From a phage: a stretch of DNA of 52,735 nucleotides. The translations under genes were made by a program, and so were the position numbers. Numbering within the stretch: the first letter of the stretch is position 1; every line of letters starts with the position of its first letter. The notes below the pieces were generated by a model that worked only from the letters and a program-made list of their open reading frames with translations, was not told where the DNA came from and did no database searches. Shown here one piece after another: positions 4,829 to 42,967 of the stretch. Location: the sequence record PZ662386.1. One strand, written 5' to 3'.

Positions 4829-5302
4829 ATGCCAAAGCAAGATTGGTCTATTAATACTGGTGAAGCATATGCAGGTGAACAATATGGCCTGGCTACCACC
4901 AACTCCCAGCGCCTGACTTACGTTGCCGAAGAAGAAATGGCAAACTTTGGTCTGGCTGTTGTTCAGGGCACGGCCTCTAATCAGGTTAAACCTGGTATTG
5001 AAGCAGACGGCACTGTTCTGGGCATCACCATGCGCCAGATTAACATCGAATCTGCTACCCGTCCTGGCGACGGCACTGTTGCTATCAAAGTTGGCTGGCC
5101 TCTGGGCGTTATGCTGTCTGGCCCAATCATGGTCAAACTGGTAACTGCAATCACCGATAAAGACATTGGCGTATCTGCCACTGGTCAATTCGGTGGCGTT
5201 GGTGCTGGCTATACTAAAGCAACCAACCTGACTGCCCTGCGTTATCCGGCTGCTGCTGGTGATGTTGTTCCAGTCATGATTAACGTAGTCCCAAAGCCGT
5301 AA
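4829..5302 (+). CDS. head decoration protein (putative, lambda gpD position)
   Basis: 157-aa ORF immediately upstream of major capsid gene, strong RBS AAGGTAAG, highly biased codon usage. Confidence 0.45.
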   Translation: MPKQDWSINTGEAYAGEQYGLATTNSQRLTYVAEEEMANFGLAVVQGTASNQVKPGIEADGTVLGITMRQINIESATRPGDGTVAIKVGWPLGVMLSGPIMVKLVTAITDKDIGVSATGQFGGVGAGYTKATNLTALRYPAAAGDVVPVMINVVPKP

Positions 5303-8403: not shown

Positions 8404-9852
8404 ATGGCAATTCCAATTTCCGACATCATCCAGGTCAACATTGCGGTAAGTCCTAACGCTGTTGCCGTGGAAGGTTTTGGTCCTCTTCTGTTTCTGAGCA
8501 AGGAGTTTACTCCAGCCCCAGGCGAAGCTGTTCCTGTTCGTCAATATACCAGCATGGCTGCTGTATCTGCTGATTTCCCATCTGGTGAAATTTATCAAGC
8601 TGCTCTGGCATGGTATTCTCAGAAACCAACTCCAAAGTATTTCCTCGTAGGTGCTATCACCCATGAAGATGTTACTCTGGCAACTCCTGGTACTGTAACC
8701 GCATCTTCTGCTGCGACTCTGGAAACCATTACTGCGTTAACTAATGGTGTTCTGTCTATCAATATTAACGGCGTTGATAAGTCTACTGCACCAATCAACT
8801 TCTCGTCCGCAGACGATTTTGCTGCTGCTGCATCAATGCTTAATGCTGCATTTGTTGCTGCCGACATTCCTGCAACTGTTACGCAGACCACAGGCACTTT
8901 CAAAATCACTACCAACGAAACTGGCGTAAATTCCATCATTGGTAACGTGTACGGTTCTGCTGCTGCGGCATTTAAACTTGACTCTGCTTCAAGCCCTGTG
9001 CATGTTCAAGGTACTGATGAAGTATCTATCGGCACCGACTTGAATGCAATCTTGAACTCTACGTTCGACTTCTTCTTTGTTGCTATTGACCGCAAATACC
9101 GTGGCAGTGCTGAGGGTAATAACCAGATGACTGTTGCCAAGTGGGCAGAAGCAAACGGCAAAGTATTTGGTTGGGCTGATAGCGACCCGCAGATTCTGGT
9201 TCCTGGTGCTGAATCTAGCTTTAAGCGTGCCAAAGAGCAGAACCTCCAACGCACTCTGTTGGTGTATGATGCGTCTGATAATGGCGACGAGTATCCAGAA
9301 GTTTCTATCCTGGGTCGTGCATCGACCGTCAACTTCAACGTTGCAAACTCTTCGCTCGTTCTGGCATTTAAACAAGGTCCAGCTATCAAGACTGCTGACT
9401 TGTCCCCGAACCAGCTTGCTGCACTTGAGCGTGTGAACGGTAACGCATTCATCAACGTTGGCGGGAACACTATGTTCTACAACGGCAAGATGGCTGACGG
9501 CACTTGGTTCGATACCGTGCAGGGCGTTTCTTGGTTAACCTCCAAGATTCGTGCTAACGTGTTCAACCTGTTCTACACCTCCACTACCAAGATTCCTTGG
9601 ACGGACACTGGTGTTGCACTGGTGAACCAGCAAGTAACCCTGGCTCTGGAACTGGCAGTGACAAATGGTCTGATTGCCCCAGGTTACGACAATGAAGGCA
9701 ACTTCTATCCAGATGGCTACAAAGTCTTGTCTACCGACTTGGCTCTGATGCAATCTCAGAAAGGTGCTCGTATCTGGGAAGGCACTTCCTTCATTGCAAT
9801 TGGCTCTGGCGCATTGCAGGGTGCAGTTATCTCTGGCAACTTCGTTCAGTAA
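8404..9852 (+). CDS. tail sheath protein
   Basis: 482-aa ORF followed by 151-aa tube gene and frameshifted chaperone; size and order typical of contractile tails. Confidence 0.65.
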   Translation: MAIPISDIIQVNIAVSPNAVAVEGFGPLLFLSKEFTPAPGEAVPVRQYTSMAAVSADFPSGEIYQAALAWYSQKPTPKYFLVGAITHEDVTLATPGTVTASSAATLETITALTNGVLSININGVDKSTAPINFSSADDFAAAASMLNAAFVAADIPATVTQTTGTFKITTNETGVNSIIGNVYGSAAAAFKLDSASSPVHVQGTDEVSIGTDLNAILNSTFDFFFVAIDRKYRGSAEGNNQMTVAKWAEANGKVFGWADSDPQILVPGAESSFKRAKEQNLQRTLLVYDASDNGDEYPEVSILGRASTVNFNVANSSLVLAFKQGPAIKTADLSPNQLAALERVNGNAFINVGGNTMFYNGKMADGTWFDTVQGVSWLTSKIRANVFNLFYTSTTKIPWTDTGVALVNQQVTLALELAVTNGLIAPGYDNEGNFYPDGYKVLSTDLALMQSQKGARIWEGTSFIAIGSGALQGAVISGNFVQ

Positions 9853-10964: not shown

Positions 10965-13900
10965 TCAAAAAGATTTAATGAAGTTGGGCGTTAATGAATT
11001 AATTGCATTAGGCTCTCAAAGCGGTCTGACTTTCCATGCTGGTATGAAGAAGTCGCACATGGTTCAACAACTTAGTGCGAGCGCTGCTTCGGGATGGCTG
11101 GATACAAATGCAGAATTAATGGGTGGGTCATTTGAAGATGACAGTTTAATTACTGAATCTTTGGGTGACTCTTCCATGATTTCAGACGCTGCCCACATTG
11201 CACAAGTGCTTTCAAGTGCTGGCTACACAGAAGCATTTCATGCAGCAATGAATGGCCCATCACACCATGTAGAAGCTGTTCACGCATACATGGAAAGGCT
11301 TGGCGTTAGCACAGATGATGTGTGGATGCACATGCCAAAGCCAAATCCGAACCTGCCGCAAGGTAGCTTCAACATGCTTAATGCCTATATGCGAGATACT
11401 TTGCAAGGGCATCAAGATATTATGCCAGAAATCCCAGGTCATTATGCTGGTGATATTATGGCTGAATACTCCACCAACCGTGGAAACATTGCTGACTCCT
11501 ACAACTACATGGCTCACATGTATGTTGACCGTGAGCAATACAGCAATCATGAACAATACGCAAGAGACATTAGTCGAGTTGCCAAACGTCTGGAACGAGA
11601 GTTACCCTCAGCCTTTAAGGAAGTTGGGTATACATCCGCATCTAATGTAGGAAATAAATCGGCCCCACATATTTCTTACATGGATACACTCCCTCAAATT
11701 GGTTCTCCTTCAATTGTTTCCGGCATTGCACATCCTCGTGCACCTCTTAACGCATCTGGACTTCCTCTTGGTTCTTATGGTTCTGGCATAAATCCAGAAT
11801 ACTCCCTCACTGCATCACTAACTGGTGGCACAGGTTGGAGCGAACCAAGCAAGGCTTTGTATTCTTCTATTAGTGAAGCTGTTAAATCTGCTGCCAAAGT
11901 CTATTCTGGCCCCAAAGGGATGCTGAATACTCGTCACGAAGTATCTGACCGTGACATGATTATGGATAGTGCAACACGCTACACGGATTTGGAAGAAGCC
12001 CGAAGCGGATACGAAAACCTTCGTTCTGAACTTGCAGATGAGCCAGCTTATTCTGCATCAAGTGTTCGAGCTATTCTCGAAAACACTTACGATAAAATGG
12101 ATGCCGAACCTATCAGCATTCCGAAGATGAAGGGAGCTTCACAGCGAGTCGATAAAGATTCGCGGTCAACATCTACAGATTTTACAGCACAACTTGGAGA
12201 GGCCACCAATTGGAACTCTGCAAGAATGCGTCGCGAGGAACTTGCGATTGCAAATATGGATAGTGCTGGATTCCGTGATGTATCAGACTATGGTACAGGA
12301 CGTTCCGAGTCCCCCGTCCGATTCCATGACTTAGAACAGGGTAGCCAAGAGTGGCTGGACTTCCGTAAAAATTATGACATAACTGGCTCAACTGTTGGAA
12401 CCTTCTTAGGAAACAACCCTTACACCCGACCTTGGGCTGGGATGATTGATAAGATTGGTCTATCTCGTAGTAAGGAGCACAGCGATTTCACCAAAAAGAT
12501 GTTCGCTGATGGTCACAGGACGGAAGAAGAAGCACGCGCTCGTGTTGGTAAGGAATTTGGATTCGATATCAAACAAACTGGCGCTATAACAAATGACAAC
12601 TATCCCGCCTTCATGTATTCTCCTGATGGTCTTATTGGGGATGATGCCATTTGGGAGCACAAGAATCCGCAAAGGGCTGGTAAGTTTGCTGACCTTCTTA
12701 AAGGCGACCATCCAGACTACATGGACCAAATTCAATTTGGTTTGCACGTTTCTGGTCGTTCTCGTGCTTTGTTCTCACAAACCATCAACGACGAAACACG
12801 TTCACAATGGATTGAGAAGGACGAAGGATGGTACGAAAGAAACCGAAATCGCCTTGATTCTGTGCTTGGCCGTCTTGATGCTGGGCGAGAGTTTGTTAGA
12901 AACAATGCTGGATTAGAACGAGAAGAGCTAATTGCTGGTGCAAGAAGTGCAATGACTGGTGATGGAATCTGGAAAGATATTCGTCAAAGGTCTACTCGTG
13001 GTTATTCTGCTGCTGCGGGTACTCCAGAAGACCCGTTTATTGGTTCACGTTCTTCGTACAATCCGACACCATCTTACTCCGACTACCAACCAAACTTTGT
13101 AATGCACGAGCAAAACTTTCCTGCAACCACTGGAAATGGTGACACCGGAAATGACTCGATGGCATTGTCTGTTAAGAAGGGTATTCTTGCTGCTCAGGAA
13201 GAAAACAGGCAGAAGGGTATTGGTGCAGATGCAGACTTTGATGGCAAAGCCGATTCAATGGGCTGGAACCGTGAAAGATTTGATGCTGCCAATGGCGGTG
13301 GATATTCTGGAGGTGGTGGTGGTGGTCGTGGCGGCAACTTCACAAGTGGTGGCAACTACTACGATGACTACGGTCGCATGGGTGGTTCGTTAGCTGCTGG
13401 CATTGCTGGTGGCAGTATTGGTTCAGCAACCAACGGAGTTATGCAAGCATTGATGGCAACTCCTGCTGGACGTATGGCTGCTGTAGGCATTGGTGCTATT
13501 CAGATTGGCAATGAAGCTGCTGAATACATGAATGACTTTATCGGCAACTCGCTTGATGCTGGTGTGATAAATCCTAATGAATACTCCTCTATGTCGCAAG
13601 GCTTGGAGATGTTGGGACTCAACTCACAACAAGCGGCACGTCTGAATCAAACCACACATAGTGCCTACAACACCATGCTTAACGGCGACCCCAGCGCCGC
13701 TGTGAACATCGTTCGCGGCAGTAGGGGATTGCTCACCATAGGTGATATTCGTGCGACAGGCGGCGACCCTGTGGCCCTGGCTCGCATCATGCAGGAAAGG
13801 GGCAAGGAGCGTGGCTGGAGTCAGGCCCGTATCGCAGGTGCTGCCGAAATGGCTGGCCTACAGGGTATGGCGAGAGCATACGACCGCACGGAATACAGCC

Positions 13901-14707: not shown

Positions 14708-14725
14708 ACATTAGTTGAATATGTA
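14708..14725 (+). promoter_or_regulatory. degenerate copy of the conserved promoter-like motif
   Basis: ACATTAGTTGaATaTGtA matches the ACATTAGTTGGATGTGAA family in its 5' half; 24 nt upstream of the next gene. Confidence 0.25.
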
Positions 14726-24539: not shown

Positions 24540-25639
24540 TGGCTTACACTACCTTTTCACAAACCAAGAATAACCAACTATTAGAACCAATGTTCTTTGG
24601 TCAGAACGTTAACGTTGCTCGATATGACCAACAGAAGTACAGCATCTTCGAGAAGTTAATCGAGAAGCAGTTATCTTTCTTTTGGCGACCTGAAGAGGTT
24701 GATGTTAGCCAGGACCGAATTGACTATGCTGGTCTGCCTGAATGCGAGAAGCACATCTTTACCAGCAATTTACGATACCAAATCCTGCTTGATTCCATTC
24801 AAGGACGTGGACCAACCACAGTTTTGCTGCCAATTGTGAGCATTCCTGAACTGGAAACTTGGATTGAAACTTGGTCATTCTCGGAGACAATTCACTCCCG
24901 TTCTTACACACATATTATTCGTAATATTGTTACAGACCCGAGTGTCATTTTCGACGAAATTGTGGAGAATGAGCATATTAAAATGCGTGCAATCGGCATA
25001 TCCCAATATTATGACGAACTTCAACACCTAACTTCCATGTGGCATCTGCATGAAGATGAAGTAGACCTTCGTGAGCTTAAGAAGAAGCTATATTTATGCC
25101 TCATGTCCATTAATGCACTGGAAGCAATCCGCTTTTATGTCAGCTTTGCTTGCTCATTTGCCTTCGCTGAACGCAAGTTAATGGAAGGAAATGCCAAGAT
25201 TATTCGCTTAATTGCTCGTGATGAAGCACTCCATTTGACTGGAACTCAACACATGTTGAATCTTCTTGCAAGCGGGGTTGATGACCCAGAAATGGCCGAA
25301 ATTGCCAAAGAATGCCGTCAAGAATGCCAAATAATGTTCGAAAATGTGGCCCAACAAGAGAAAGATTGGGCTGATTATTTGTTCAAAGATGGCTCAATGA
25401 TTGGCTTAAATAAGCAAATTCTGTGCGGATATGTCGAATATATCACAAATATTCGTATGCAAGCAGTTGGATTGGATGCTCCATTCAAAGGTGCCACTAA
25501 CCCGATTCCTTGGATTAACGCATGGTTGAATTCGGATGCTGTACAAGTTGCTCCACAGGAAACGGAGATTAGTTCGTACCTTGTCGGGCAGATTGACTCC
25601 GAAGTTGACACCAATGCTCTAGGCGGATTTGAACTATGA
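24539..25639 (+). CDS. nrdB: ribonucleotide reductase small subunit (class I beta)
   Basis: Iron-ligand motifs [16 protein letters not shown] and [13 protein letters not shown]; 366 aa. Confidence 0.9.
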
Positions 25640-25814
25640 TTGGATATGGTGAAGGCTGACGTTTGTCAGTTAATATGCGAGAAGAGATTCGATGCGTTAT
25701 CGTCGTTTCTCTTTGAGCTAGAATAAAACAAGTAAATTAAATATTTATTATTCCCAATATTGCTACAATATTGAGAGCAATATTAGGAATGCGTAAAGTT
25801 AAAACCAAATGGTA

Positions 25815-25871
25815 CATGGTCGGTCAACTGTACCTGGATAGAAATTCGTTCATGGTCGGTCAGCTGTATCT
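25815..25871 (+). repeat. two copies of a 21-bp direct repeat
   Basis: CATGGTCGGTCAACTGTACCT and CATGGTCGGTCAGCTGTATCT 36 bp apart. Confidence 0.6.
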
Positions 25872-25962
25872 CGCCGAAATTTGTTCGAACAGTTGTCTGA
25901 CTATGAAATAATTTTTTTTTTATAATTTTTTTTTTTATTTTCAATATTGCTACAGAATTAAT

Positions 25963-26040
25963 GAGACTAGAATTCGTAACAAAGCTACGAGACTCGAATT
26001 GTTACGATATTAACGAGACTCAATCTGTGACAATATTATA
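25963..26040 (+). repeat. three tandem 26-bp iteron-like repeats (GAGACT-NGAAT core)
   Basis: GAGACT at 25963, 25989, 26015 with 26-bp period; adjacent poly-T tracts at 25911-25943. Confidence 0.55.
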
Positions 26041-26218
26041 ATCTTATTTTTGGGCCAGCGGGGAGGGGAAGCCCAACGTCCTATCGGACTTAAAATACGG
26101 TCCCTACTCCAACTTTTTCCTACAGCCTATCGGCTTTCAAACAACACCAAGTTAGGCGCTTCGCTTATGGGTCAAGGTCAAAGTCTCCGTGCTGTTGTAA
26201 CAATGGCACAGGTTTGTG

Positions 26219-26236
26219 ATATTAGTTGGACGTGAA
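26219..26236 (+). promoter_or_regulatory. conserved promoter-like motif (candidate phage-RNAP promoter)
   Basis: ATATTAGTTGGACGTGAA, member of the ACATTAGTTGGATGTGAA family; 67 nt upstream of RNAP gene. Confidence 0.4.
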
Positions 26237-26302
26237 TTGTGTAATGGCTACGCTATTATAATCCGTTTCAGTTAAATCATACACAATCTTGGAGACTTAC
26301 AA

Positions 26303-28243
26303 ATGACTACTATCACCACTCAAACTATCAAATCCGTTGTTCCTGCTATCACTGCTCTGGTATACCGTGCCAAAGAGAAACAGAACTATATGCAGCCTCA
26401 GACTTGTGCTATTGCTGCCTTAGCCATCTTCAAGATGATGACGTCTTTCACTCGTGATGACGTTGTTCCTGCCATCGCGATGGTTGAACTGGCTTCTGCT
26501 TCTATTGCTGATGCCAACCGTTATAACAACGATTTGAAAGCAATGCACTATGTTGACCCAGCTATCAACCTCATTGGTCTGGCTAAGCACTTTGGCTTCA
26601 TCACCATGAACGAAGACAAGTCATTCCAACAGACTGACACATGGGTTGAACTGGTTACAACCAAAGACACCGCAGTGCCATTCACTGAGCGTGTTACATC
26701 TGAATCTCGTCGCAAGCCTTTCGTTAAAGGTGGCAAGGTTAAGCCATCTAAGACTCTGAAAGCTGCAATCGAATTCCTGCAAGATACTGAGTACCATGTG
26801 GAGACTGAGATGGTTCGCATCATCCAGTCCATGCTTGAGCAACGTACTTATGGTGGCTTGCAGATGCCAGAAGCAATCCAGACTGAACTCCATGTTTGGA
26901 ACAATGCTGTAGCAATGATGAATCAGGACACACTGTATTCTGACTACTTTGCTGATAACCGTGGTCGCCTGTATCATGTAGCATGTGCTGGTCCTAACCC
27001 ACAATCATCTGACTTTGCTCGTTGCTTGTATTCTCACAATGTTGAGAACATCGTTAAGAAGTTTAACGAAGATGGTTCTACTACCATTGCATACAATATG
27101 TTCATGGCAGAACTGGAAGACATTTCTGGTGGTGAATGGTGCACTGCTAAGCGTTTGACTTATGTTGCTCAGAATCCTGCTGGTTCACTTGCTCGCATGA
27201 TGAACATGCCTAAAGCTGAACGTCCTTCTAAGCCATTCACTTATGTTCGTCTGGCTCTGGATTGGTTCAAGTTTGAGACTACAGGTGAATGCGATTCTCG
27301 TGTAGGCTTTGGCTTAGATGCTAAATGCTCTGGTACTCAATATCTGGCATTCATTGCTGGCAATATGGAAATGGCTCGTGCAACAGGTCTGGTTGATTCT
27401 GAGACTAAAGCATCTGACCCATACCAGTTGAGTCTTCGTGAACTGTTGAAGCTGCTGGACAAGTCTTCAATGAAGCCATCTCCTGAAATCATGGAAGAGT
27501 TCTTGAATCCGAAAGCTGGTCGTAAGTTTATCAAAACTCCGTACATGGCTATTCAATACGGTGGTGGTAAAGCTGCATTAACTGGTTCTTCTGACTTCAT
27601 TAGCTACATGACAGAAGCTCTCCAGATTCCAGTTGAGAAAGCTGAGGCATTTGCTGAACTGTGTGTGGAAGCAATCCATAACGCATTGGGTGCCAAGATT
27701 AACATGTTCATCGAGAAAGCTGCTGATGCTGCATACAACCGTTGTGTTGAACTCAACAAAGAGTACATCACATACCGTCACACTGACGGTCAGGTTGTAA
27801 TGAAGCCTTGCTTCCCATCCCGTGAAATCTGTGAGGCATTCAGCATTCGTGTTGACTCTCAAACTCGTGTTATCTTTGGTCAGATTCAGGAGAATAAGCC
27901 TTGGACCATTCGTGAATCCAATCCAACTAAAGAAGAATTCAAGCGTACTTTCGTTGTTAACTACATTCAAGGTATTGACGCACTGGTTGCTCGTACTGTT
28001 GCAGTTAAAGCTAAAGAAGCTGGCCTTCGTGGTTTCACTTCAATCCATGATTGTTTCCGTTGCTGTTTGGCAGATGCTCCACGTATGATGGAAGTTATTC
28101 GTGCAGCATATGTTGAAATCTTTGTAACCAACAATCAATTCGAGAATCTGTCTAAGCAACTCGGTGGCATTCAGATGTATCATGAGAACATCGTAACCGA
28201 AGAGCTTCTGATGAGCGAACACGCTTACTACTTCTGTCAATAA
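26303..28243 (+). CDS. single-subunit RNA polymerase (T7-like, compact)
   Basis: T7 RNAP-like motifs DNRGRLY...NPQ, DAKCSGTQY, KTPYMAIQYGGG, SIHDCF; only 646 aa. Confidence 0.8.
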   Translation: MTTITTQTIKSVVPAITALVYRAKEKQNYMQPQTCAIAALAIFKMMTSFTRDDVVPAIAMVELASASIADANRYNNDLKAMHYVDPAINLIGLAKHFGFITMNEDKSFQQTDTWVELVTTKDTAVPFTERVTSESRRKPFVKGGKVKPSKTLKAAIEFLQDTEYHVETEMVRIIQSMLEQRTYGGLQMPEAIQTELHVWNNAVAMMNQDTLYSDYFADNRGRLYHVACAGPNPQSSDFARCLYSHNVENIVKKFNEDGSTTIAYNMFMAELEDISGGEWCTAKRLTYVAQNPAGSLARMMNMPKAERPSKPFTYVRLALDWFKFETTGECDSRVGFGLDAKCSGTQYLAFIAGNMEMARATGLVDSETKASDPYQLSLRELLKLLDKSSMKPSPEIMEEFLNPKAGRKFIKTPYMAIQYGGGKAALTGSSDFISYMTEALQIPVEKAEAFAELCVEAIHNALGAKINMFIEKAADAAYNRCVELNKEYITYRHTDGQVVMKPCFPSREICEAFSIRVDSQTRVIFGQIQENKPWTIRESNPTKEEFKRTFVVNYIQGIDALVARTVAVKAKEAGLRGFTSIHDCFRCCLADAPRMMEVIRAAYVEIFVTNNQFENLSKQLGGIQMYHENIVTEELLMSEHAYYFCQ

Positions 28244-28250
28244 GAGAAAC

Positions 28251-28294
28251 AGGGCTGTCATCGAAAGGTGATGGCCCTTTCTTTATTCTTTATT
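28251..28294 (+). terminator. rho-independent terminator after RNAP gene
   Basis: Imperfect GC stem (AGGGC...GATGGCCC) followed by TTTCTTTATTCTTTATT. Confidence 0.55.
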
Positions 28295-28334
28295 AAATAA
28301 ATCCTTTAATTCCCAATATTCGGACAATATTGTT

Positions 28335-29235
28335 GCATGTAATATTGTCCCGATATTCGACATTAGTTGGATGTGAAGTAAAAGAATACGGAGAAATATT
28401 CCGCATGTCATGTTGAATCATTCTAGAAACATTCAGCATGTCAGCTTTGAGTTACAGTGTTGTAATGATGTGGCAATCATTGAACTCCCTGGGAAGGCCA
28501 CCTACAGTTCCAGCAACCATGACACAGAGTAGGAATATCTATCCGAAACTTTGACTTCATCTGTAGCATGTTCAATTGCTCCAATATTGTTCCTTCTCCT
28601 ATTATCAAGGCCCACCCACAAGCCGGGAGATAACTTTAGCAAGACTGGAACTTTTGGACATGCTTCTTTCTTTCAATCAGAATTCGAAAGAAGAGAAGAA
28701 GTCGGACTAAGCCTCTCGTTTGCACGCAGAAGCCGCCCCGATTTTGAGCAACAAATATTGTGACAATTGCGTCGCAGTATGGCATGTAAATATTGCTACA
28801 AATTGGCATGTTGGAATGTGGCAGAATTGTTAGAGGACTAATCACCTCGAAGATACAATCGTCTACCAATCTGGCATGTTAATTTTGTAACAGTATTTGT
28901 GCCAATTTCGCATGTAATAGCTGTATCAGTAGTGACCCAATATTCTTGCAACCCGCATGAATACTGGCTTCCAGCCAAGCGAAGGCTTTATCATCGCATG
29001 TAATATTGTGACAATATTGGGATAAAACCCTTTATTTAAATCATTTAGTTTATTAATTAAATGGTCGGTTTTCTGTACATAGGTATTTAGCTGTTTGTGC
29101 CAAATACAAACAAGTTGGCTGCTTCTACAGAACTCCAGTGCTATAAATGTTCGTGCCAATCTGCTGCGATTTATCTCATTTGGCGGGGTAATATTGTATT
29201 AGATTGGCATGTCATTCTTTCGATTAGTTGCATGT
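28335..29235 (+). repeat. array of about 12 degenerate GCATGT(A)A(T)ATTG-type repeats
   Basis: GCATGT at 28335, 28403, 28436, 28566, 28782, 28806, 28874, 28910, 28996, 29207, 29230 plus a GCATGA variant at 28955; interspersed CAATATTG palindromes. Confidence 0.6.
28360..28377 (+). promoter_or_regulatory. conserved promoter-like motif
   Basis: ACATTAGTTGGATGTGAA exact consensus copy. Confidence 0.4.
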
Positions 29236-29238
29236 GAA
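29221..29238 (+). promoter_or_regulatory. conserved promoter-like motif (variant)
   Basis: CGATTAGTTGCATGTGAA; about 180 nt upstream of the first early ORF. Confidence 0.35.
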
Positions 29239-29419
29239 TAAGACCAAATCTCTGTAAATTCTGTGACAGATTTTAGAGAGATTATGTCTCCAAGCTAATC
29301 ATTGTAGTTCTTCGGCACTTAATGTGTCACATACTCCCTACAACTTTAAGGTGGATTGAGGTAAGACAAGACCTCCACAATCGTTCTGTAGGGAGTTTTC
29401 TTTAACTTGGGAGAATAAA

Positions 29420-29668
29420 ATGGATACTGTGACTAAAGCTGCTTACTTTAAAGACTTGTCAGATGGTCAAATATTTTCTATTCGCTCTGTAAAGTGGATT
29501 AAAGTAAATGAATCAGACAAGTACAATGCTGTAAAGTTCTTTGATTCAAGCAAGGCATGTACTTTTAGTGACAATATTGTTGTAAATATTGAAGTCGAAT
29601 TAGAGCCAGATGATTCAAATGATGAAATCATTCTGCGTAAAACTGTTGGATACACTAAAGGATTCTGA
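29420..29668 (+). CDS. hypothetical early protein
   Basis: 82-aa ORF with RBS; first of a tightly packed, overlap-coupled early gene block. Confidence 0.5.
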   Translation: MDTVTKAAYFKDLSDGQIFSIRSVKWIKVNESDKYNAVKFFDSSKACTFSDNIVVNIEVELEPDDSNDEIILRKTVGYTKGF

Positions 29669-39227: not shown

Positions 39228-39902
39228 ATGTCTTATCATGATGATGACAAAGAGATTGCACTATCAACGTGTAAGCAATGGCTCAATGATAATGATGCCG
39301 TCTATCTTGCCAAGGAAGATGTTATCATTATGTGGGTCCATTTTAATCCAGAATCGAAGCGCGGTGAGTGGCAACGCTACAAGATGAAAGAGGCTTGCCG
39401 CATAATTAAAGCCACACGCGCTGGCTTCTCTGCTATGAAGTACATCAAGCCAGAGATGCTAATGCTTGCTGCACAGGAAGAAGAACGTGCATATAAGCAA
39501 GCTGTTAAATCTCGTTCAACTGTTCCTCCAGAGTTCTTTAATTTGGAGCGCGCTGGACACTTCAACAATTTAGAAATGTTGACACTGTGCCTGTTGCAAG
39601 AATTAGTTGGAAGAGGACAAAACATTGAAGCTGTTTGTCTTGGAGAACTCATGAAAGAGTTGTTCTCGGCAAAGGGCTTTGCTGTGCCAAACCGAACTTT
39701 ACGCTGGAAATTGTTGCGAGCAGTCGCGCAAGAAGCTGGTGTAGTTGTTCGTGACAGAACAAACCGACTCACTGTAACTGGAGTTGGGCGTTTTGTAGCA
39801 ATCCAGATTGAGGGTTATGACGAATCAATCATCACTGAACTCACTGTCGCTGAGACAAAGGATTTAGTAAATAAAACACTAGAACGATTCAATAGATATT
39901 GA
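39228..39902 (+). CDS. hypothetical protein (224 aa)
   Basis: ATG at 39228 just after upstream stop; no motif recognised. Confidence 0.45.
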   Translation: MSYHDDDKEIALSTCKQWLNDNDAVYLAKEDVIIMWVHFNPESKRGEWQRYKMKEACRIIKATRAGFSAMKYIKPEMLMLAAQEEERAYKQAVKSRSTVPPEFFNLERAGHFNNLEMLTLCLLQELVGRGQNIEAVCLGELMKELFSAKGFAVPNRTLRWKLLRAVAQEAGVVVRDRTNRLTVTGVGRFVAIQIEGYDESIITELTVAETKDLVNKTLERFNRY

Positions 39903-40364: not shown

Positions 40365-41268
40365 GGTGCCAATGGCAAACTTGAGAGACTAAGCTAAATC
40401 GATCTGGCATGCACTGGAATATTTCCGGTGCTGCCTTGAACCCACTCCAGAGTGAGTGAGTGGGCTTCAATGAGCATTCTTGTGATTAGAGTTGGGAGGT
40501 AGGCCGATGCCCAAGCTCATGGCCCAGGCAAGAGTGTTCATTGAAGTAGTTTTCTGAGTCTTACGACGGGCCTAAACTGCCTGAAGTTATTGCGACTGTT
40601 TTATTCATTTAAAATAAATGCAAATGATTCTGAAATGCGAGTTGCGGCTTAATTAAATTTAAGTCCTCTCCGTGGTCTTCCAATCCCACGTAACCAAATT
40701 TGGCGCATTGTGGCTTCGAGATGTGATTAATAAATCGGAGCAATAATTAATTTGTATTCTGCGATGCAATGCAGGCTTAAGTCCCCAGTGCGCGTGGGGA
40801 TGTGACAGAGTACAAACTTAATTATGCAGTTGGATATTTCTAGAGGACGGACGAGCACACTGGAATGTCTTCAATTGGTTTAGTGTGAGAAGCTGTGCCA
40901 ATATGAAACGTAACTCCTTGGGGAAGTGCTCCTCTGGATTTCCCTCCACACAGGAATCTCAAGCCTGTGGCAGCGACTTCGAAGCTGCACTGCGTAACCT
41001 AAATTCACCCTAAAGTGAGTTGCCCTGAGTATGGAAATAAACTGCTCATAACCGATGGTATCTACAAAGGTAGATTAAATCAGGTTGCCTGTTGGTACTT
41101 GGGTTCAACACCTGCTTGCACTCGCAAAGTAGTGCCTCGTACCTGAGATGAAGTGAGTCGGGACCATCAATCCCACGTTATGTCAAAACACAGTAGGCGA
41201 CTCACGGATTCTACAAGCCTCGCAGTTCGGGAAAACCTGCGTTATCAAAACCCCCCCCACTCATATTT

Positions 41269-41361
41269 GGACGAGTAGCTCAGAAGGTCTGCTCCAGAGC
41301 TTAGTCAGGTAGAGCAATCTGTTCGACAGATGTGTCGTTGGTTCGAATCCAACCTCGTCCA
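41269..41361 (+). tRNA. tRNA-like gene, non-canonical (93 nt; possible UCG anticodon)
   Basis: Perfect 7-bp acceptor stem GGACGAG/CTCGTCC, TAGCTCAG...AGGTAGAGC D-arm interrupted by ~23 nt, canonical T-arm GTTGG TTCGAAT CCAAC; anticodon arm ambiguous. Confidence 0.4.
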
Positions 41362-41394
41362 CCTACTTTAATAATCCGCAACACTGGAGTCCTT

Positions 41395-41535
41395 ATGGAT
41401 TTTGATGCACTTGATAACTTAGACTTCGGTGCTGCCGAAGAAGCAATTGAAGAACTTAAGAAGAAGCAGGACGAAGAAGCAATCGTTCCTGGTGAGGGCG
41501 ATAACGACTGCTCAAGCGGTGCTTGCGCCATCTAA
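41395..41535 (+). CDS. small acidic protein
   Basis: 46-aa ORF with GGAG RBS immediately after the tRNA-like element. Confidence 0.3.
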   Translation: MDFDALDNLDFGAAEEAIEELKKKQDEEAIVPGEGDNDCSSGACAI

Positions 41536-41543
41536 GGTGATTT

Positions 41544-41780
41544 ATGCAACAGCTTAAATCAATAGTTCTTGGCGTCCTGACTGCATTTGGTATTCTAATT
41601 GCAGTGTTCCTCAAAGGCAAAAGCTCAGGCAAAGCCGAGGAGCGTCAGGAAGCCACAGAGAAGCAACTAGATTCATTAAAAGAATCTATCGAGATTAAAT
41701 CGCATGTTCAGAAAGAAGTGTCTAGCAGTTCTGATAGCAATGTCGATAGTGAGTTGCTCTCAAAGTGGGTTCGTAAGTGA
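41544..41780 (+). CDS. i-spanin-like protein (Rz-like)
   Basis: N-terminal TM helix then charged coiled-coil region; the lipoprotein ORF is embedded in its 3' end. Confidence 0.45.
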   Translation: MQQLKSIVLGVLTAFGILIAVFLKGKSSGKAEERQEATEKQLDSLKESIEIKSHVQKEVSSSSDSNVDSELLSKWVRK

Positions 41781-41913
41781 TTATTGCTTAATTGCACAAC
41801 CAATCTATTTGGATATTGCAGAAGTGAAAATCTTATCACGCGAAACCAAAACACAGATTTTAGTCCACAATGAAACGTGGGCACAAAAGTGTTCTCAACT
41901 TACCCGACAGTGA
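41704..41913 (+). CDS. o-spanin-like lipoprotein (Rz1-like)
   Basis: Signal peptide with lipobox-like IVSC; overlaps the 3' end of the upstream gene in another frame. Confidence 0.45.
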   Translation: MFRKKCLAVLIAMSIVSCSQSGFVSDYCLIAQPIYLDIAEVKILSRETKTQILVHNETWAQKCSQLTRQ

Positions 41914-42290
41914 GTGAACAAATGCTCGCCAACGCATTTCATTTGGCAGTCCGGTACGGGACTTTAAACACACGTATATCATAGTCGAGGGAGTGTGCGA
42001 CTTTAAATAACGAGACTCTAGCAACTTGTTGCGATGGTGGTGTAAGCCCACGCGTTTGGAAGCAGGACTCCAACTCAAACAAACCTGCAAATTGCTCTGG
42101 GCATAACAATTGAAATTGCTGCCTCGCATTGAACGCGAGAAAGTTCAGGTAGTCACTTCCTAGAACAGTGGCCGGGAACAGACCTAGACAAAGTGCTTGA
42201 GAACGTTAGCTCTGTCTTGCCAGCATTAATGGCACGTTGGCCGCGTAAAGGCCACAGCGTCTGACCAACGTATCGGTCAACTAATTCAAT

Positions 42291-42358
42291 GGGATTTTCG
42301 TATGTACGGGCTTGACCGTGGTGAAACGACCTGACTGGTTCGATTCCAGTAAATCCCC
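42291..42358 (+). ncRNA. tRNA-like element (68 nt, truncated cloverleaf)
   Basis: Perfect 7-bp acceptor-like stem GGGATTT/AAATCCC, T-arm ACTGG TTCGATT CCAGT, one internal hairpin. Confidence 0.3.
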
Positions 42359-42474
42359 CGAACAATGGATTCGTAGAGTTAATGAAACCTGCACAACGGG
42401 CTAGGTGAAACATCTGAGGCCGACCGTGTAATTGTGAACGTGGAGTTCACCGAATCCACCAAATCAATGGGCTA

Positions 42475-42541
42475 GTGCAAATGTCAGTCACTAGAAGATG
42501 TGTTGCAAAACGTCTTCCATGATGTGCAAAGTGTCAGTCAC
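42475..42541 (+). repeat. direct repeat GTGCAAA(T/GT)GTCAGTCAC x2
   Basis: Copies at 42475-42491 and 42524-42541; flanked by repeated CCACCAAAT. Confidence 0.5.
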
Positions 42542-42967
42542 GTGCCCACCAAATACGGAGACGCTCGAACTTCCAACCACCGCTGGGGAAGTAGAAGTTT
42601 GTAGAACTCCGCCATTTTCCTAACAGTTATGCCTCTGTTCAAAAGGCTCATGTAAGCGTCTGGCATACCGTAGCGATACGGCTTAGTTGCGCTGATTGTG
42701 ATGTGTCGAAAGAAAGTTCAGGCTTTCGTTTGAGTTCCTCCTCATCTCGAAGTTAGCTGTATTCAAAATACAGACTATGTTCCTATTCACATGAAATATG
42801 CAAGTCAGGGTTCTTAATGTTCAAACATGATGCGAGCATTAAGCGGGTTTATACTTTCCCCGATGGTCCCCATAAACAAGGTTGATTCACTTGGGCGGTT
42901 CGAATCAAATTTAATAAGTGTTTTGTAATAGTCAGGGCACTTACTTAAATTTTAACTGGAGAGAAAC

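What the first reader, a model, noticed from the sequence alone, without database searches (positions are those of the whole stretch)
28300..29240. Dense array of GCATGT-core repeats in the 1.2-kb gap after the RNAP gene
About twelve GCATGT-core copies lie within 900 bp, far above chance, often as TNGCATGTAATATTG and interleaved with the 8-bp palindrome CAATATTG. The core resembles the 3' half of the promoter-like motif (TTGGATGTGAA versus TTGCATGTAAT). They may be weak promoters, RNAP-sequestering sites or operator sites for a dimeric regulator.
Basis: seen in the sequence. Interest (0 to 1): 0.5.

Follow-up and report, generated by a model that had tools for sequence, protein, structure and literature searches.

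The report
Oriented hexamer array spanning terminal-repeat boundary
The dense GCATGT repeats are real and conserved across a whole phage family (Chaseviridae); they sit on both sides of the point where the phage's 2.6-kb terminal repeat ends, so they most likely mark a protein-assembly site for forming or packaging genome ends rather than a set of weak promoters.

Summary
Observation confirmed. The 1,176-nt non-coding gap after the RNA polymerase (RNAP) gene holds 11 GCATGT on the + strand, 1 on the - strand and 1 GCATGA. About 0.46 are expected, and only 12 + strand copies lie in the other 51.5 kb.

The window is a permuted genome of a phiEcoM-GJ1-like myovirus (Chaseviridae). The array is family-wide:
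- GCATGT is the first or second commonest hexamer of this gap in all eight close lineages examined, all + strand.
- Hexamer columns are 82% conserved against 61% for the rest of the gap.
- Distant relatives have the same gap with a different oriented hexamer (GTATGA, GTGTGA).

New point: in six relatives with recorded ends, the right boundary of the long direct terminal repeat (DTR) falls inside the array. It maps to about window 28698-28708.

The units lack the conserved half of the phage promoter motif (ACATTAGTTG). They are not sigma-70 promoters, coding sequence or a known RNA.

Best reading (confidence 0.4): phased, one-directional binding sites for a co-evolving phage protein, forming the end-formation/packaging complex. 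The closest analogue is T7's CCTAAAG arrays beside its terminal repeat. Rivals are a replication origin and RNAP-related control sites. The function is untested.

The parts
28251..28278 (+). Intrinsic terminator after the RNAP gene (ORF 26303-28243)
   Evidence: 12-bp stem followed by a T-run. Annotated as a terminator in the relative SA91KD.
28293..28331 (+). Left arm of a ~39-nt imperfect inverted repeat (TTAAATAAA..TCCCAATATTCGGACAATATT) holding two CAATATTG-type palindromes 11 nt apart
   Evidence: Inverted repeats I5 and I14. The same element occurs on the + strand at 25744-25772 and 25931-25959 (D2). Conserved in relatives.
28335..28571 (+). Array part A: GCATGT at 28335, 28403, 28436 and 28566, inside the terminal repeat
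   Evidence: Sites 28403 and 28436 have orthologous hexamers in all 7 aligned lineages, one or two of them differing at a single base. The first site sits in the loop of a 25-nt palindrome (I2; DNA fold z = -2.3).
28360..28377 (+). Phage promoter-like site P1 (ACATTAGTTGGATGTGAA)
   Evidence: Top repeated 18-mer family of the genome. Annotated as a putative phage promoter in EF460875 and OL960574. Conserved across genera.
28482..28652 (+). Conserved core block without + strand GCATGT except the site at 28566: GAACTCCCTG, a small hairpin, AGTTCCAG (28506) ... TCCTATTAT.AAGGCCC....CACAAGCCGGGA (28597-28628) ... CTGGAACT (28645)
   Evidence: Many invariant columns. The alignment fold predicts a long-range helix AGTTCC/GGAAC and a hairpin with compensatory changes, but the covariation term is weak at -1.16 kcal/mol.
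28658..28663 (-). The only reverse-oriented GCATGT
28698..28708 (.). Inferred right boundary of the direct terminal repeat (..GAAGAAGTCG|GACTAAGCC; TCGGAC at 28702-28707), at the 3' foot of an imperfect hairpin (28662-28701)
   Evidence: Mapped by homology from the exact terminal duplications in Y2 (2608 bp) and PM1 (2665 bp) and from the PhageTerm repeats of 4HA13 (3120 bp) and Mangalitsa (3234 bp). The Faunus record starts at the same place. Hairpin z = -2.4. Not measured on this phage.
28782..29001 (+). Array part B: GCATGT at 28782, 28806, 28874, 28910 and 28996, GCATGA at 28955; outside the terminal repeat. Many units read GCATGT-N6-GTNACA-ATATT
   Evidence: Sites 28782, 28806 and 28874 are invariant in 7 lineages. 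The companion GT[GAT][AG]C[AC] starts 12-13 nt after the hexamer start in 28 of 77 sites.
28830..28856 (+). Nearly invariant block TTAGAGGACTAATCACCTCGAAGATAC between hexamers
29002..29039 (-). Right arm of the inverted repeat (AATATTGTGACAATATTGGGATAAAACCCTTTATTTAA)
   Evidence: I5 and I14. TTGTGAC..TTG.G is invariant across genera.
29024..29063 (.). AT-rich tract (85% A+T)
   Evidence: AT/T-rich in all relatives.
29061..29077 (+). ATGGTCGGTTTTCTGTA, third copy of a motif also present at 25816 and 25852
   Evidence: 3 exact pattern matches against 0.15 expected. Conserved.
29207..29238 (+). Array part C: GCATGT at 29207 and 29230. The second lies inside promoter-like site P2 (CGATTAGTTGCATGTGAA, 29221-29238), about 190 nt before the first early ORF (29420)
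25963..26040 (+). Sister array before the left terminal-repeat boundary: GAGACT at 25963, 25989 and 26015, each followed 12-13 nt later by GTAACA, GTTACG or GTGACA plus ATATT, the same companion as in the GCATGT units
   Evidence: The hexamer is genus-specific here: CGGCTC in PM1, GATTCG in Y2.
26084..26090 (.). Inferred left end of the genome and left boundary of the terminal repeat (CCTATCG|GAC|TTAAAATACGGTCCC; TCGGAC at 26084-26089)
   Evidence: The first bases of the PM1, Y2, 4HA13 and Mangalitsa records map here.

Best explanation
The GCATGT repeats are one-directional, helically phased binding sites on DNA for a phage-encoded sequence-specific protein that co-evolves with them. The protein is unidentified; candidates are the small terminase subunit, an early protein or the RNAP itself.

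Together with the companion GTNACA-ATATT elements and the two CAATATTG-bearing inverted-repeat arms (28293-28331 and 29002-29039), they would organise about 700 bp of DNA into a nucleoprotein complex. That complex is centred on the site-specific right boundary of the ~2.6-kb direct terminal repeat (about 28704).

In replicated concatemers this complex, possibly with transcription entering from the promoter-like site P1 at 28360, would position the cut or nick that makes the genome's right end. It would therefore act as the packaging/end-formation signal.

Shown: the array, its orientation, its conservation, the clade-specific core, and its fixed position relative to the repeat boundary in relatives. 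Inferred: that a protein binds it, which protein, and that the complex serves end formation.
For: 1. The array is real and strand-biased.
2. Selection acts on the hexamers themselves. Hexamer columns are 82% conserved against 61% for the rest of the gap, P = 0.0005, and three sites are invariant in 7 lineages. GCATGT is the first or second commonest hexamer of the gap in PM1, phiA050, PA_03, Myduc, SSEM1 and SNUABM27.
3. The core changes with the clade, so the binder is probably phage-encoded. ZPAH14 has GTATGA, 7 in the gap against 11 in the other 49 kb. Spp001 has GTGTGA, 8 against 7. VPs20 has GTATGA x7.
4. In every relative with a recorded repeat, the right boundary lies inside the array at nearly fixed offsets. 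The first site to the right is at +67 to +102 in the six GCATGT lineages (the window's own boundary is inferred), and the boundary also lies inside the GTATGA array of ZPAH14.
5. The repeat length changes (2608-3234 bp) when ORFs are inserted between the RNAP gene and the array, yet the boundary stays at the same place in the array. The boundary is therefore set by sequence, not by length.
6. Site spacings cluster at 22-25, 33-38, 41-45, 55-60 and 67-69 nt. A Fourier peak at 11.5 nt has P of about 0.005. This suggests binding along one face of the DNA.
7. The left boundary has a sister array with the same unit design but another hexamer.
8. T7 shows the same design. Eleven oriented (C/A)TAAAG copies abut its 160-bp terminal repeat, three lie inside it and three lie left of the right-end copy. 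All are on the + strand, and they are bracketed by the phage promoters phiOR and phiOL.
9. In T7, paused RNAP at the concatemer junction recruits the packaging proteins (PMC3276506).
Against: - No binding protein was identified. Pfam scans of 16 early ORFs of this phage and 4 of relatives found no DNA-binding candidate.
- The function of T7's analogous repeats is, to my knowledge, also unproven, so the analogy is architectural only.
- The array extends about 500 nt beyond the boundary, which is longer than classical pac sites.
- The boundary in this phage is inferred by homology, not measured.
- One experimental study (PYps23T, PMC8762354) places the repeat ends inside the promoter-like motif instead: window equivalents 26231 and about 28372, giving 2339 bp. 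The right-hand one still falls between two hexamers.
- The boundary has to lie in non-coding DNA, and this is the largest non-coding stretch near the left end, so co-location could be incidental.
- Phasing is significant only in the window and in PM1.
Confidence: 0.4

Rival explanations
1. Replication origin. The hexamer units are iteron-like sites for an initiator or for loading the helicase-primase. They would work with transcription from P1/P2 and the AT-rich tract, as at T7's primary origin just downstream of its RNAP gene. The terminal-repeat boundary would merely share the same non-coding region.
For: - Same position relative to the RNAP gene as the T7 primary origin (established knowledge of T7, from memory). 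T7 phagemids need both an origin and a packaging signal (PMC13236587).
- Two promoter-like sites flank the array.
- An 85% A+T tract lies at 29024-29063. AT-rich tracts also sit between the hexamer clusters in ZPAH14 and Spp001.
- Phasing of about 11.5 nt is typical of iterons.
- GC skew is near zero for 20-28 kb and rises to +0.05 to +0.12 from about 28.5 kb rightwards.
Against: - No initiator gene was found next to the array.
- The conserved core is only 6 nt, against 17-22 nt for classical iterons.
- An origin does not explain why the repeat boundary keeps a fixed offset within the array in both subfamilies, nor why the left boundary has a sister array.
- The skew change coincides with the late-to-early gene transition and is not a V-shaped minimum.
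Confidence: 0.25
2. RNAP-related control sites. The units would be degenerate promoter derivatives that the phage RNAP binds, starts at weakly, or pauses at. They would buffer free RNAP or time the early-to-middle switch.
For: - The core matches TTG[G/C]ATGT[G]A in four of the promoter-like sites, and P2 itself contains GCATGT.
- All units point in the direction of transcription and lie between P1 and P2.
- The core co-varies with the clade, as RNAP specificity would.
- In ZPAH14 the array context (CTATG..GTATGA) loosely resembles the hairpin-plus-TCTATGGTA motif found in its intergenic regions.
- The ICTV profile states that promoters of this family are still unidentified (PMC12842549).
Against: - The units lack the invariant ACATTAGTTG half, and the half they resemble is the variable one.
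- They are absent from the other intergenic regions that carry promoter-like sites.
- Helical phasing and the companion GTNACA-ATATT element are not expected for promoters or pause sites.
- Known T7-type polymerases bind through the upstream half of the promoter (established knowledge).
Confidence: 0.2
3. RNA-level element. The gap is transcribed from P1 into a ~0.9-kb non-coding leader whose GCAUGU repeats and conserved hairpins bind an RNA-binding protein or act as processing sites.
For: - P1 is followed by about 1 kb without a conserved ORF.
- The block 28482-28652 has a predicted conserved long-range helix and a hairpin with compensatory changes.
- The strand bias fits an RNA signal.
Against: - No Rfam family matches.
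- The covariation term is weak at -1.16 kcal/mol.
- The hexamers are not consistently placed in predicted loops.
- DNA-type features are not expected of an RNA element: 8-bp palindromes spaced 11 nt apart, 39-nt inverted arms 670 nt apart, and helical phasing.
Confidence: 0.07
4. Cluster of host sigma-70 early promoters, with TG of GCATGT as an extended -10 followed by nAnnnT.
For: After GCATGT, A at the second position (10 of 13 sites) and T at the sixth position (9 of 13) mimic -11A and -7T. The early genes start just downstream.
Against: - The information lies in GCATGT (1.1-2.1 bits per position), not in the putative -10 (0.6-0.7 bits).
- The sigma-70 scan found 9 sites against 10.3 expected, and none at a + strand hexamer.
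- The core changes between phage clades whose hosts share sigma-70 specificity.
Confidence: 0.03

Closest known systems
T7 short-repeat arrays flanking the terminal repeat (SRL/SRR of Dunn and Studier 1983; name and reference from memory, sequence checked here)
   Same: Oriented 6-7-bp repeats at high density abut the terminal-repeat boundary. All copies lie on one strand, spacing is quantised (13 nt and multiples in T7), and the array is bracketed by two phage-RNAP promoters with no obvious gene to serve (phiOR at 39229, phiOL at 405). T7 has 11 copies at 176-356, 3 inside the repeat and 3 to its left. The phage also has a single-subunit RNAP.
   Different: The motif differs (CCTAAAG against GCATGT). 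T7's repeat is 160 bp and non-coding, so one array spans both boundaries. Here the repeat is about 2.6 kb and carries the RNAP gene, and the two boundaries have different hexamers. Units here are about 24 nt, with a second element (GTNACA-ATATT) and flanking palindromes. There is no sequence homology. The function of the T7 arrays is itself unsettled.
P1 pac site (hexamer TGATCA/G elements on both sides of the cleavage site; from memory)
   Same: Several copies of a hexamer are distributed on both sides of a site-specific terminase cut.
   Different: P1 pac is about 160 bp, depends on methylation, and starts headful packaging of permuted genomes. Here the array spans about 900 bp and the ends are fixed terminal repeats. 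Binding by terminase is untested.
Iteron-type replication origins and the T7 primary origin (phi1.1A/B promoters plus an AT-rich region downstream of gene 1; from memory)
   Same: Phased direct repeats next to an AT-rich tract. Position immediately downstream of the RNAP gene, with phage promoters.
   Different: The conserved core is 6 nt rather than 17-22 nt. No initiator gene was found. The T7 origin has no comparable hexamer array.
Putative phage promoters of phiEcoM-GJ1 (Jamalludeen et al. 2008, as annotated in EF460875 and OL960574)
   Same: Two of these sites (28360, 29221) lie in the gap. Part of their 3' half reads TTG(G/C)ATGTGA.
   Different: The array units lack ACATTAGTTG and are not found upstream of other gene blocks.

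Membership tests
T7-type single-subunit RNAP promoter of this genome | Shares the ~18-22-nt consensus found at the genome's other promoter-like sites | tested here: not met
   The consensus is (a)ACATTAGTTGGAtgTGAa, about 10 copies. The GCATGT units carry no ACATTAGTT; only P1 and P2 do.
T7-type single-subunit RNAP promoter of this genome | Distributed upstream of gene blocks along the genome | tested here: not met
   + strand GCATGT outside the gap is at background level, 12 in 51.5 kb and mostly inside ORFs.
T7-type single-subunit RNAP promoter of this genome | Specific initiation by the phage RNAP | not testable with these tools
   Needs transcription-start mapping or in-vitro transcription.
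Sigma-70 promoter cluster | -35 and -10 hexamers 16-18 nt apart, in excess over chance | tested here: not met
   9 sites found against 10.3 +/- 3.1 expected in 25600-29500. None coincides with a + strand unit.
Terminal-repeat-flanking short-repeat arrays (T7 SRL/SRR type) | Dense short repeats, all in one orientation | tested here: met
   11 + strand against 1 - strand in 901 nt. T7 control: 14 + strand and 1 - strand in 800 nt of the left end.
Terminal-repeat-flanking short-repeat arrays (T7 SRL/SRR type) | The array abuts or straddles a terminal-repeat boundary | tested here: met
   Met in relatives: Y2, PM1, 4HA13, Mangalitsa, Myduc and ZPAH14. By homology only for the window itself.
Terminal-repeat-flanking short-repeat arrays (T7 SRL/SRR type) | Bracketed by phage-RNAP promoters | tested here: inconclusive
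   Promoter-like sites lie at 28360 and 29221, but promoters of this family have not been verified experimentally (PMC12842549).
pac / terminase recognition site | A site-specific cut flanked by repeated recognition elements | tested here: inconclusive
   Sites lie at -369 to -138 and +78 to +526 from the inferred cut. The cut was not measured in this phage.
pac / terminase recognition site | Bound by the small terminase subunit | not testable with these tools
   Needs EMSA or footprinting.
Iteron replication origin | Direct repeats phased with the DNA helix next to an AT-rich unwinding tract | tested here: inconclusive
   Spacings are near multiples of about 11.5 nt. The Fourier peak has P of about 0.005 in the window and 0.025 in PM1, and is not significant in four other lineages. 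An AT-rich tract lies at 29024-29063.
Iteron replication origin | A cognate initiator gene nearby | tested here: not met
   No Rep-like or DNA-binding domain in 16 early ORFs of the window or in 4 ORFs of relatives, apart from an HNH nuclease in VPs20 and a methyltransferase in ZPAH14.
Known structured RNA (Rfam), tRNA | Match to a curated covariance model | tested here: not met
   Only one chance-level hit, E = 0.92. Nothing reached a gathering score in the whole window. No tRNA.
Protein-coding sequence | An ORF conserved in relatives | tested here: not met
   All five ORFs of 42-77 aa in the gap are broken by stops or frameshifts in most relatives. None matches a PHROG family.

The most novel reading that the evidence does not exclude
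The hexamer array, with its sister array at the left boundary, is the sequence-defined device that fixes where a multi-kilobase direct terminal repeat begins and ends. A clade-specific phage protein, or the minimal 646-aa RNAP paused on these sites, would assemble on the phased units and direct the nicks or cuts that duplicate the repeat. If so, Chaseviridae would give the first tractable cis-element for how long terminal repeats are generated. This is unresolved for T5- and SPO1-type phages, and the analogous T7 repeats remain unexplained.
Probability: 0.3. Interest if true: 0.75.

Novelty: new variant of a known kind. Interest (0 to 1): 0.55.

Why it matters
No paper I could search or open describes this array. 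The original phiEcoM-GJ1 paper and the Y2 paper were not available, so an earlier mention cannot be excluded.

The array is conserved across the family, its core co-varies with the phage clade, and it keeps a fixed position relative to the terminal-repeat boundary. That gives a concrete, mutable cis-element for asking how fixed long terminal repeats are made and recognised.

It also bears on a related question: the role of the similar, long-known but unexplained repeats next to T7's terminal repeat.

Practically, it tells annotators where the true genome ends of these therapeutic-candidate phages lie. Many deposited records are permuted.

Tried and rejected
- Coding. The small ORFs in the gap are not conserved and match no PHROG family.
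- Sigma-70 promoters. No excess, and none at the units.
- Rfam families and tRNAs. None.
- Complete phage promoters. The units lack ACATTAGTTG.
- Host-factor sites. I compared the units from memory with consensus sites for sigma-54, Tus/Ter, DnaA, IHF, Fis, CsrA, ArcA, PhoB, OmpR and matS. None fits all units, and a host factor would not explain the clade-specific cores.
- Primase-site and single-strand-nick ideas. Considered; no supporting evidence.
- Candidate binding protein. Pfam scans of 20 early ORFs gave nothing useful. The gene annotated 'AP2' in VPs20 is an HNH endonuclease.
- Promoter discovery in the distant phages, to test co-variation between promoter and array. My 18-mer repeat search recovered the promoter motif in the window. 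It found none in ZPAH14 or Spp001. By eye, ZPAH14 has a hairpin-plus-TCTATGGTA motif in intergenic regions. The test stayed inconclusive.
- A cut-site motif common to all lineages. TCGGAC lies at both boundaries in the window lineage, but the boundaries of Y2, PM1 and ZPAH14 share only a loose TC|G.
- Literature. The phiEcoM-GJ1 and Y2 genome papers are not held. The ST32, 4HA13, PP101 and ICTV texts do not mention the repeats. A full-text search for CCTAAAG gave nothing relevant on T7.
Full report
**1. Observation**

GCATGT occurs on the + strand at 28335, 28403, 28436, 28566, 28782, 28806, 28874, 28910, 28996, 29207 and 29230, and once on the - strand at 28658. A GCATGA lies at 28955.

The window as a whole is not enriched: 35 matches against 41 expected. 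The signal is a local cluster.
- 11 + strand copies lie in the 1,176-nt gap (28244-29419) against 12 in the remaining 51.5 kb, a 38.6-fold difference.
- The gap's own dinucleotide content predicts 0.46 copies.
- None of 20,000 random placements put more than 8 of the 23 + strand sites into a 901-nt window.

AATATTGT is also concentrated here, 6 copies inside against 2 outside. The exact palindrome CAATATTG is nearly confined to this gap and to the non-coding region at 25640-26302.

**2. What the window is**

The gap matches 68 phage records, with the best at 94-96% identity: phiEcoM-GJ1, ST32, SKA49, DE15 and relatives. These are Chaseviridae, genus Carltongylesvirus.

The ORF at 26303-28243 is a 646-aa T7-type RNAP. 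Upstream lie a ribonucleotide reductase small chain and a cell-wall hydrolase, which are the last genes in relatives' maps. The window is therefore a permuted whole genome whose conventional start lies near 26.1 kb.

The ICTV profile states that these phages have ~3-kb direct terminal repeats and that their promoters 'have not yet been identified' (PMC12842549).

**3. Anatomy of the gap**

In order along the + strand:
- Terminator, 28251-28278.
- Left arm of a ~39-nt inverted repeat, 28293-28331, with two CAATATTG-type palindromes 11 nt apart. Its partner is at 29002-29039.
- Array part A, four hexamers.
- Promoter-like site P1, 28360-28377.
- A strongly conserved block, 28482-28652.
- An imperfect hairpin ending in TCGGAC (28702-28707).
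- Array part B, six hexamers. Many of these units read GCATGT-N6-GTNACA-ATATT.
- An 85% A+T tract, 29024-29063.
- ATGGTCGGTTTTCTGTA at 29061. Two more copies lie at 25816 and 25852.
- Two more hexamers, the second inside promoter-like site P2 (29221-29238).
- The first early ORF at 29420.

**4. Conservation**

GCATGT is the first or second commonest hexamer of the post-RNAP gap in each of these lineages, always on the + strand:

| Phage | Host genus | GCATGT in gap |
|---|---|---|
| PM1 | Pectobacterium | 10 |
| phiA050 | Aeromonas | 10 |
| PA_03 | Proteus | 15 |
| Myduc | Proteus | 13 |
| SSEM1 | Pantoea | 9 |
| SNUABM27 | Erwinia | 8 |

4HA13 and Faunus show the same dense + strand array of GCATG(T/A) copies in this gap.

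In a seven-lineage alignment, hexamer columns are 82.4% identical to the window against 61.2% for the other gap columns (P = 0.0005 by resampling). Sites 28782, 28806 and 28874 are invariant.

Distant family members, whose RNAP is about 34% identical, keep a 1.0-1.3-kb non-coding gap after the RNAP gene but carry a different oriented hexamer:

| Phage | Hexamer | In gap | Elsewhere |
|---|---|---|---|
| ZPAH14 | GTATGA | 7 | 11 in 49 kb (28.6-fold) |
| VPs20 | GTATGA | 7 | 4 in the rest of the 6.2-kb locus |
| Spp001 | GTGTGA | 8 | 7 in 48.7 kb (39.8-fold) |

A core that changes with the phage clade, while the design stays the same, points to a phage-encoded reader rather than a host factor.

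**5. The terminal-repeat boundary**

Six relatives have recorded ends:
- The PM1 and Y2 records carry exact terminal duplications of 2,665 and 2,608 bp.
- The ZPAH14 record carries an exact duplication of 3,373 bp.
- 4HA13, Mangalitsa and Myduc carry PhageTerm repeats of 3,120, 3,234 and 3,202 bp.

All left ends in the GCATGT lineages map to window 26087-26090 (CCTATCG|GAC|TTAAAATACGG). All right boundaries map to 28698-28708 (GAAGTCG|GAC|TAAGCC). The Faunus record starts at the same place.

In every case the right boundary lies inside the hexamer array at similar offsets. In the six GCATGT lineages tabulated (the window's own boundary is inferred), the first sites to the right are at +67 to +102, then +102 to +136, then +170 to +204. 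The ZPAH14 boundary sits between its GTATGA sites at -80 and +45.

Repeat length varies because some phages carry extra ORFs between the RNAP gene and the array. The boundary nevertheless keeps its place in the array, so it is set by sequence.

The study of PYps23T reports a 2,339-bp repeat (PMC8762354). Its two ends both fall in ATTAGTTGGA|YGTGAA, the promoter-like motif. This disagrees with the six other determinations. It may reflect the shared 13-nt motif in the ligation-PCR assay, which is my inference. Even so, that right end lies between two hexamers.

**6. The left boundary has a sister array**

GAGACT occurs at 25963, 25989 and 26015. Each copy is followed 12-13 nt later by GTAACA, GTTACG or GTGACA plus ATATT, the same companion and offset as in the GCATGT units. 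The array lies 50-125 nt before the left end.

The hexamer here is genus-specific: CGGCTC in PM1 and GATTCG in Y2.

**7. What the array is not**

- Not coding. The five small ORFs are disrupted in relatives and match no PHROG family.
- Not sigma-70 promoters. There is no excess, and none lies at a unit.
- Not a known RNA or tRNA.
- Not full phage promoters. An unbiased 18-mer repeat search returns ACATTAGTTGGATGTGAA as the top family, 12 hits. The convincing ones are at 14708, 26219, 28360, 29221, 33520, 37690, 37831, 37968 and 39932. All are on the + strand and most are intergenic. Its invariant part, ACATTAGTTG, is absent from the array units, and the part they resemble varies among the promoters themselves.

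**8. Mechanism**

Spacings between neighbouring hexamers across lineages cluster at 22-25, 33-38, 41-45, 55-60 and 67-69 nt. A Fourier peak at 11.5 nt is significant in the window (P about 0.005) and in PM1, but not in four other lineages. This is suggestive, not proven, evidence for binding along one face of duplex DNA.

Four features favour a DNA-level nucleoprotein complex centred on the repeat boundary:
- the single orientation of the units;
- the flanking inverted arms with dimer-type palindromes;
- the sister array at the left boundary;
- the fixed boundary offset.

I therefore rank an end-formation/packaging role first (0.4).

A replication origin (0.25) fits the synteny with T7's primary origin, the AT-rich tract and a change in GC skew at about 28.5 kb. 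It does not explain the boundary relation, and no initiator gene was found.

RNAP decoy or pause sites (0.2) remain possible, because the core co-varies with the clade and partly resembles the promoter's 3' half. RNA-level (0.07) and host-promoter (0.03) readings are weak.

The functions need not be exclusive. T7 phagemids need an origin, a packaging signal and the terminal repeat together (PMC13236587). In T7, RNAP paused at the concatemer junction recruits the packaging proteins (PMC3276506).

**9. Closest known system**

I checked the T7 sequence directly.
- The 160-bp terminal repeat holds three (C/A)TAAAG copies.
- Eleven more follow it at 176-356, with spacing of 13 nt and multiples.
- Three precede the right-end copy.
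- All are on the + strand.
- The set is bracketed by phiOR (39229) and phiOL (405).

This is the same design with another motif and a much shorter, non-coding repeat. The names SRL/SRR, and the statement that their role is unsettled, come from memory.

**10. Verdict**

The finding is real, conserved and functional-looking. The location at the terminal-repeat boundary and the family-wide, clade-specific nature of the core are the new facts.

The function is untested. Every mechanistic step beyond 'conserved oriented sites at the boundary' is inference.

Noticed in passing
window 26084-26090 and 28698-28708: Inferred physical ends of the genome. TCGGAC sits at both terminal-repeat boundaries (26084 and 28702), which implies a repeat of about 2,618 bp carrying the whole RNAP gene. 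The deposited assembly is permuted relative to these ends.
   Followed up: yes
window 25963-26040: Three GAGACT units 26 nt apart, each with a GTNACA-ATATT companion, just before the left end. The hexamer is replaced by CGGCTC in PM1 and by GATTCG in Y2.
   Followed up: partly
window 25816-25832, 25852-25868, 29061-29077: ATGGTCGGT-N3-CTGTA occurs three times, only in the two boundary regions (0.15 expected). It is conserved in relatives. Function unknown.
   Followed up: no
window 25910-25941: Two long T-runs (T10 and T11) around TATAAT, in the non-coding region left of the genome end. A consensus -10 with CTGACT as -35 lies here, but it would sit only at the right end of virion DNA.
   Followed up: no
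window 28482-28652: Very conserved non-coding block just inside the terminal repeat (GAACTCCCTG..AGTTCCAG..TCCTATTAT.AAGGCCC....CACAAGCCGGGA..CTGGAACT). It has a predicted long-range helix and one small hairpin with compensatory changes. It could be a structured RNA or a protein site. It is absent from the Proteus phages.
   Followed up: partly
window 28830-28856, 29096-29107, 29314-29338: Further nearly invariant non-coding blocks across genera: TTAGAGGACTAATCACCTCGAAGATAC, TGTGCCAAATAC and GGCAC..TGTGTCACA..CTCCC. Unexplained.
   Followed up: no
window 14708, 26219, 28360, 29221, 33520, 37690, 37831, 37968, 39932: About 10 + strand copies of (a)ACATTAGTTGGAtgTGAa, most of them intergenic. 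This is the best candidate for the phage RNAP promoter. One copy precedes the RNAP gene itself, which would allow positive feedback.
   Followed up: partly
L005/L006 (Yersinia phage PYps23T, MW147598): The published 2,339-bp terminal repeat begins and ends inside the promoter-like motif (ATTAGTTGGA|YGTGAA). This disagrees with Y2, PM1, 4HA13, Mangalitsa, Myduc and Faunus. It may be an artefact of the shared motif in the ligation-PCR assay.
   Followed up: partly
window 40365-42967: A second gene-poor stretch of about 2.6 kb. It has only one + strand ORF of at least 70 aa, and relatives annotate a few small hypothetical proteins there (plus a tRNA-Arg in GJ1). No tRNA, Rfam hit or notable repeat was found in the window.
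   Followed up: partly
L016/L020 (ZPAH14) 2620-2665, 5255-5300, 8865-8910, 10980-11030; L018 (Spp001) just after the RNAP stop codon: In the distant subfamily, a hairpin followed by T(C/T)TATGGTAAC recurs after the RNAP gene and in intergenic regions. GGCTCTTCGAGCC hairpins also recur in the gap. These are possibly that clade's promoters or processing sites.
   Followed up: no
window 26303-28243: The RNAP is only 646 aa, against 718-845 aa in the distant family members as annotated and 883 aa in T7 (from memory). Pfam RNA_pol matches only residues 322-621. A reduced N-terminal region might change how promoters are recognised.
   Followed up: no
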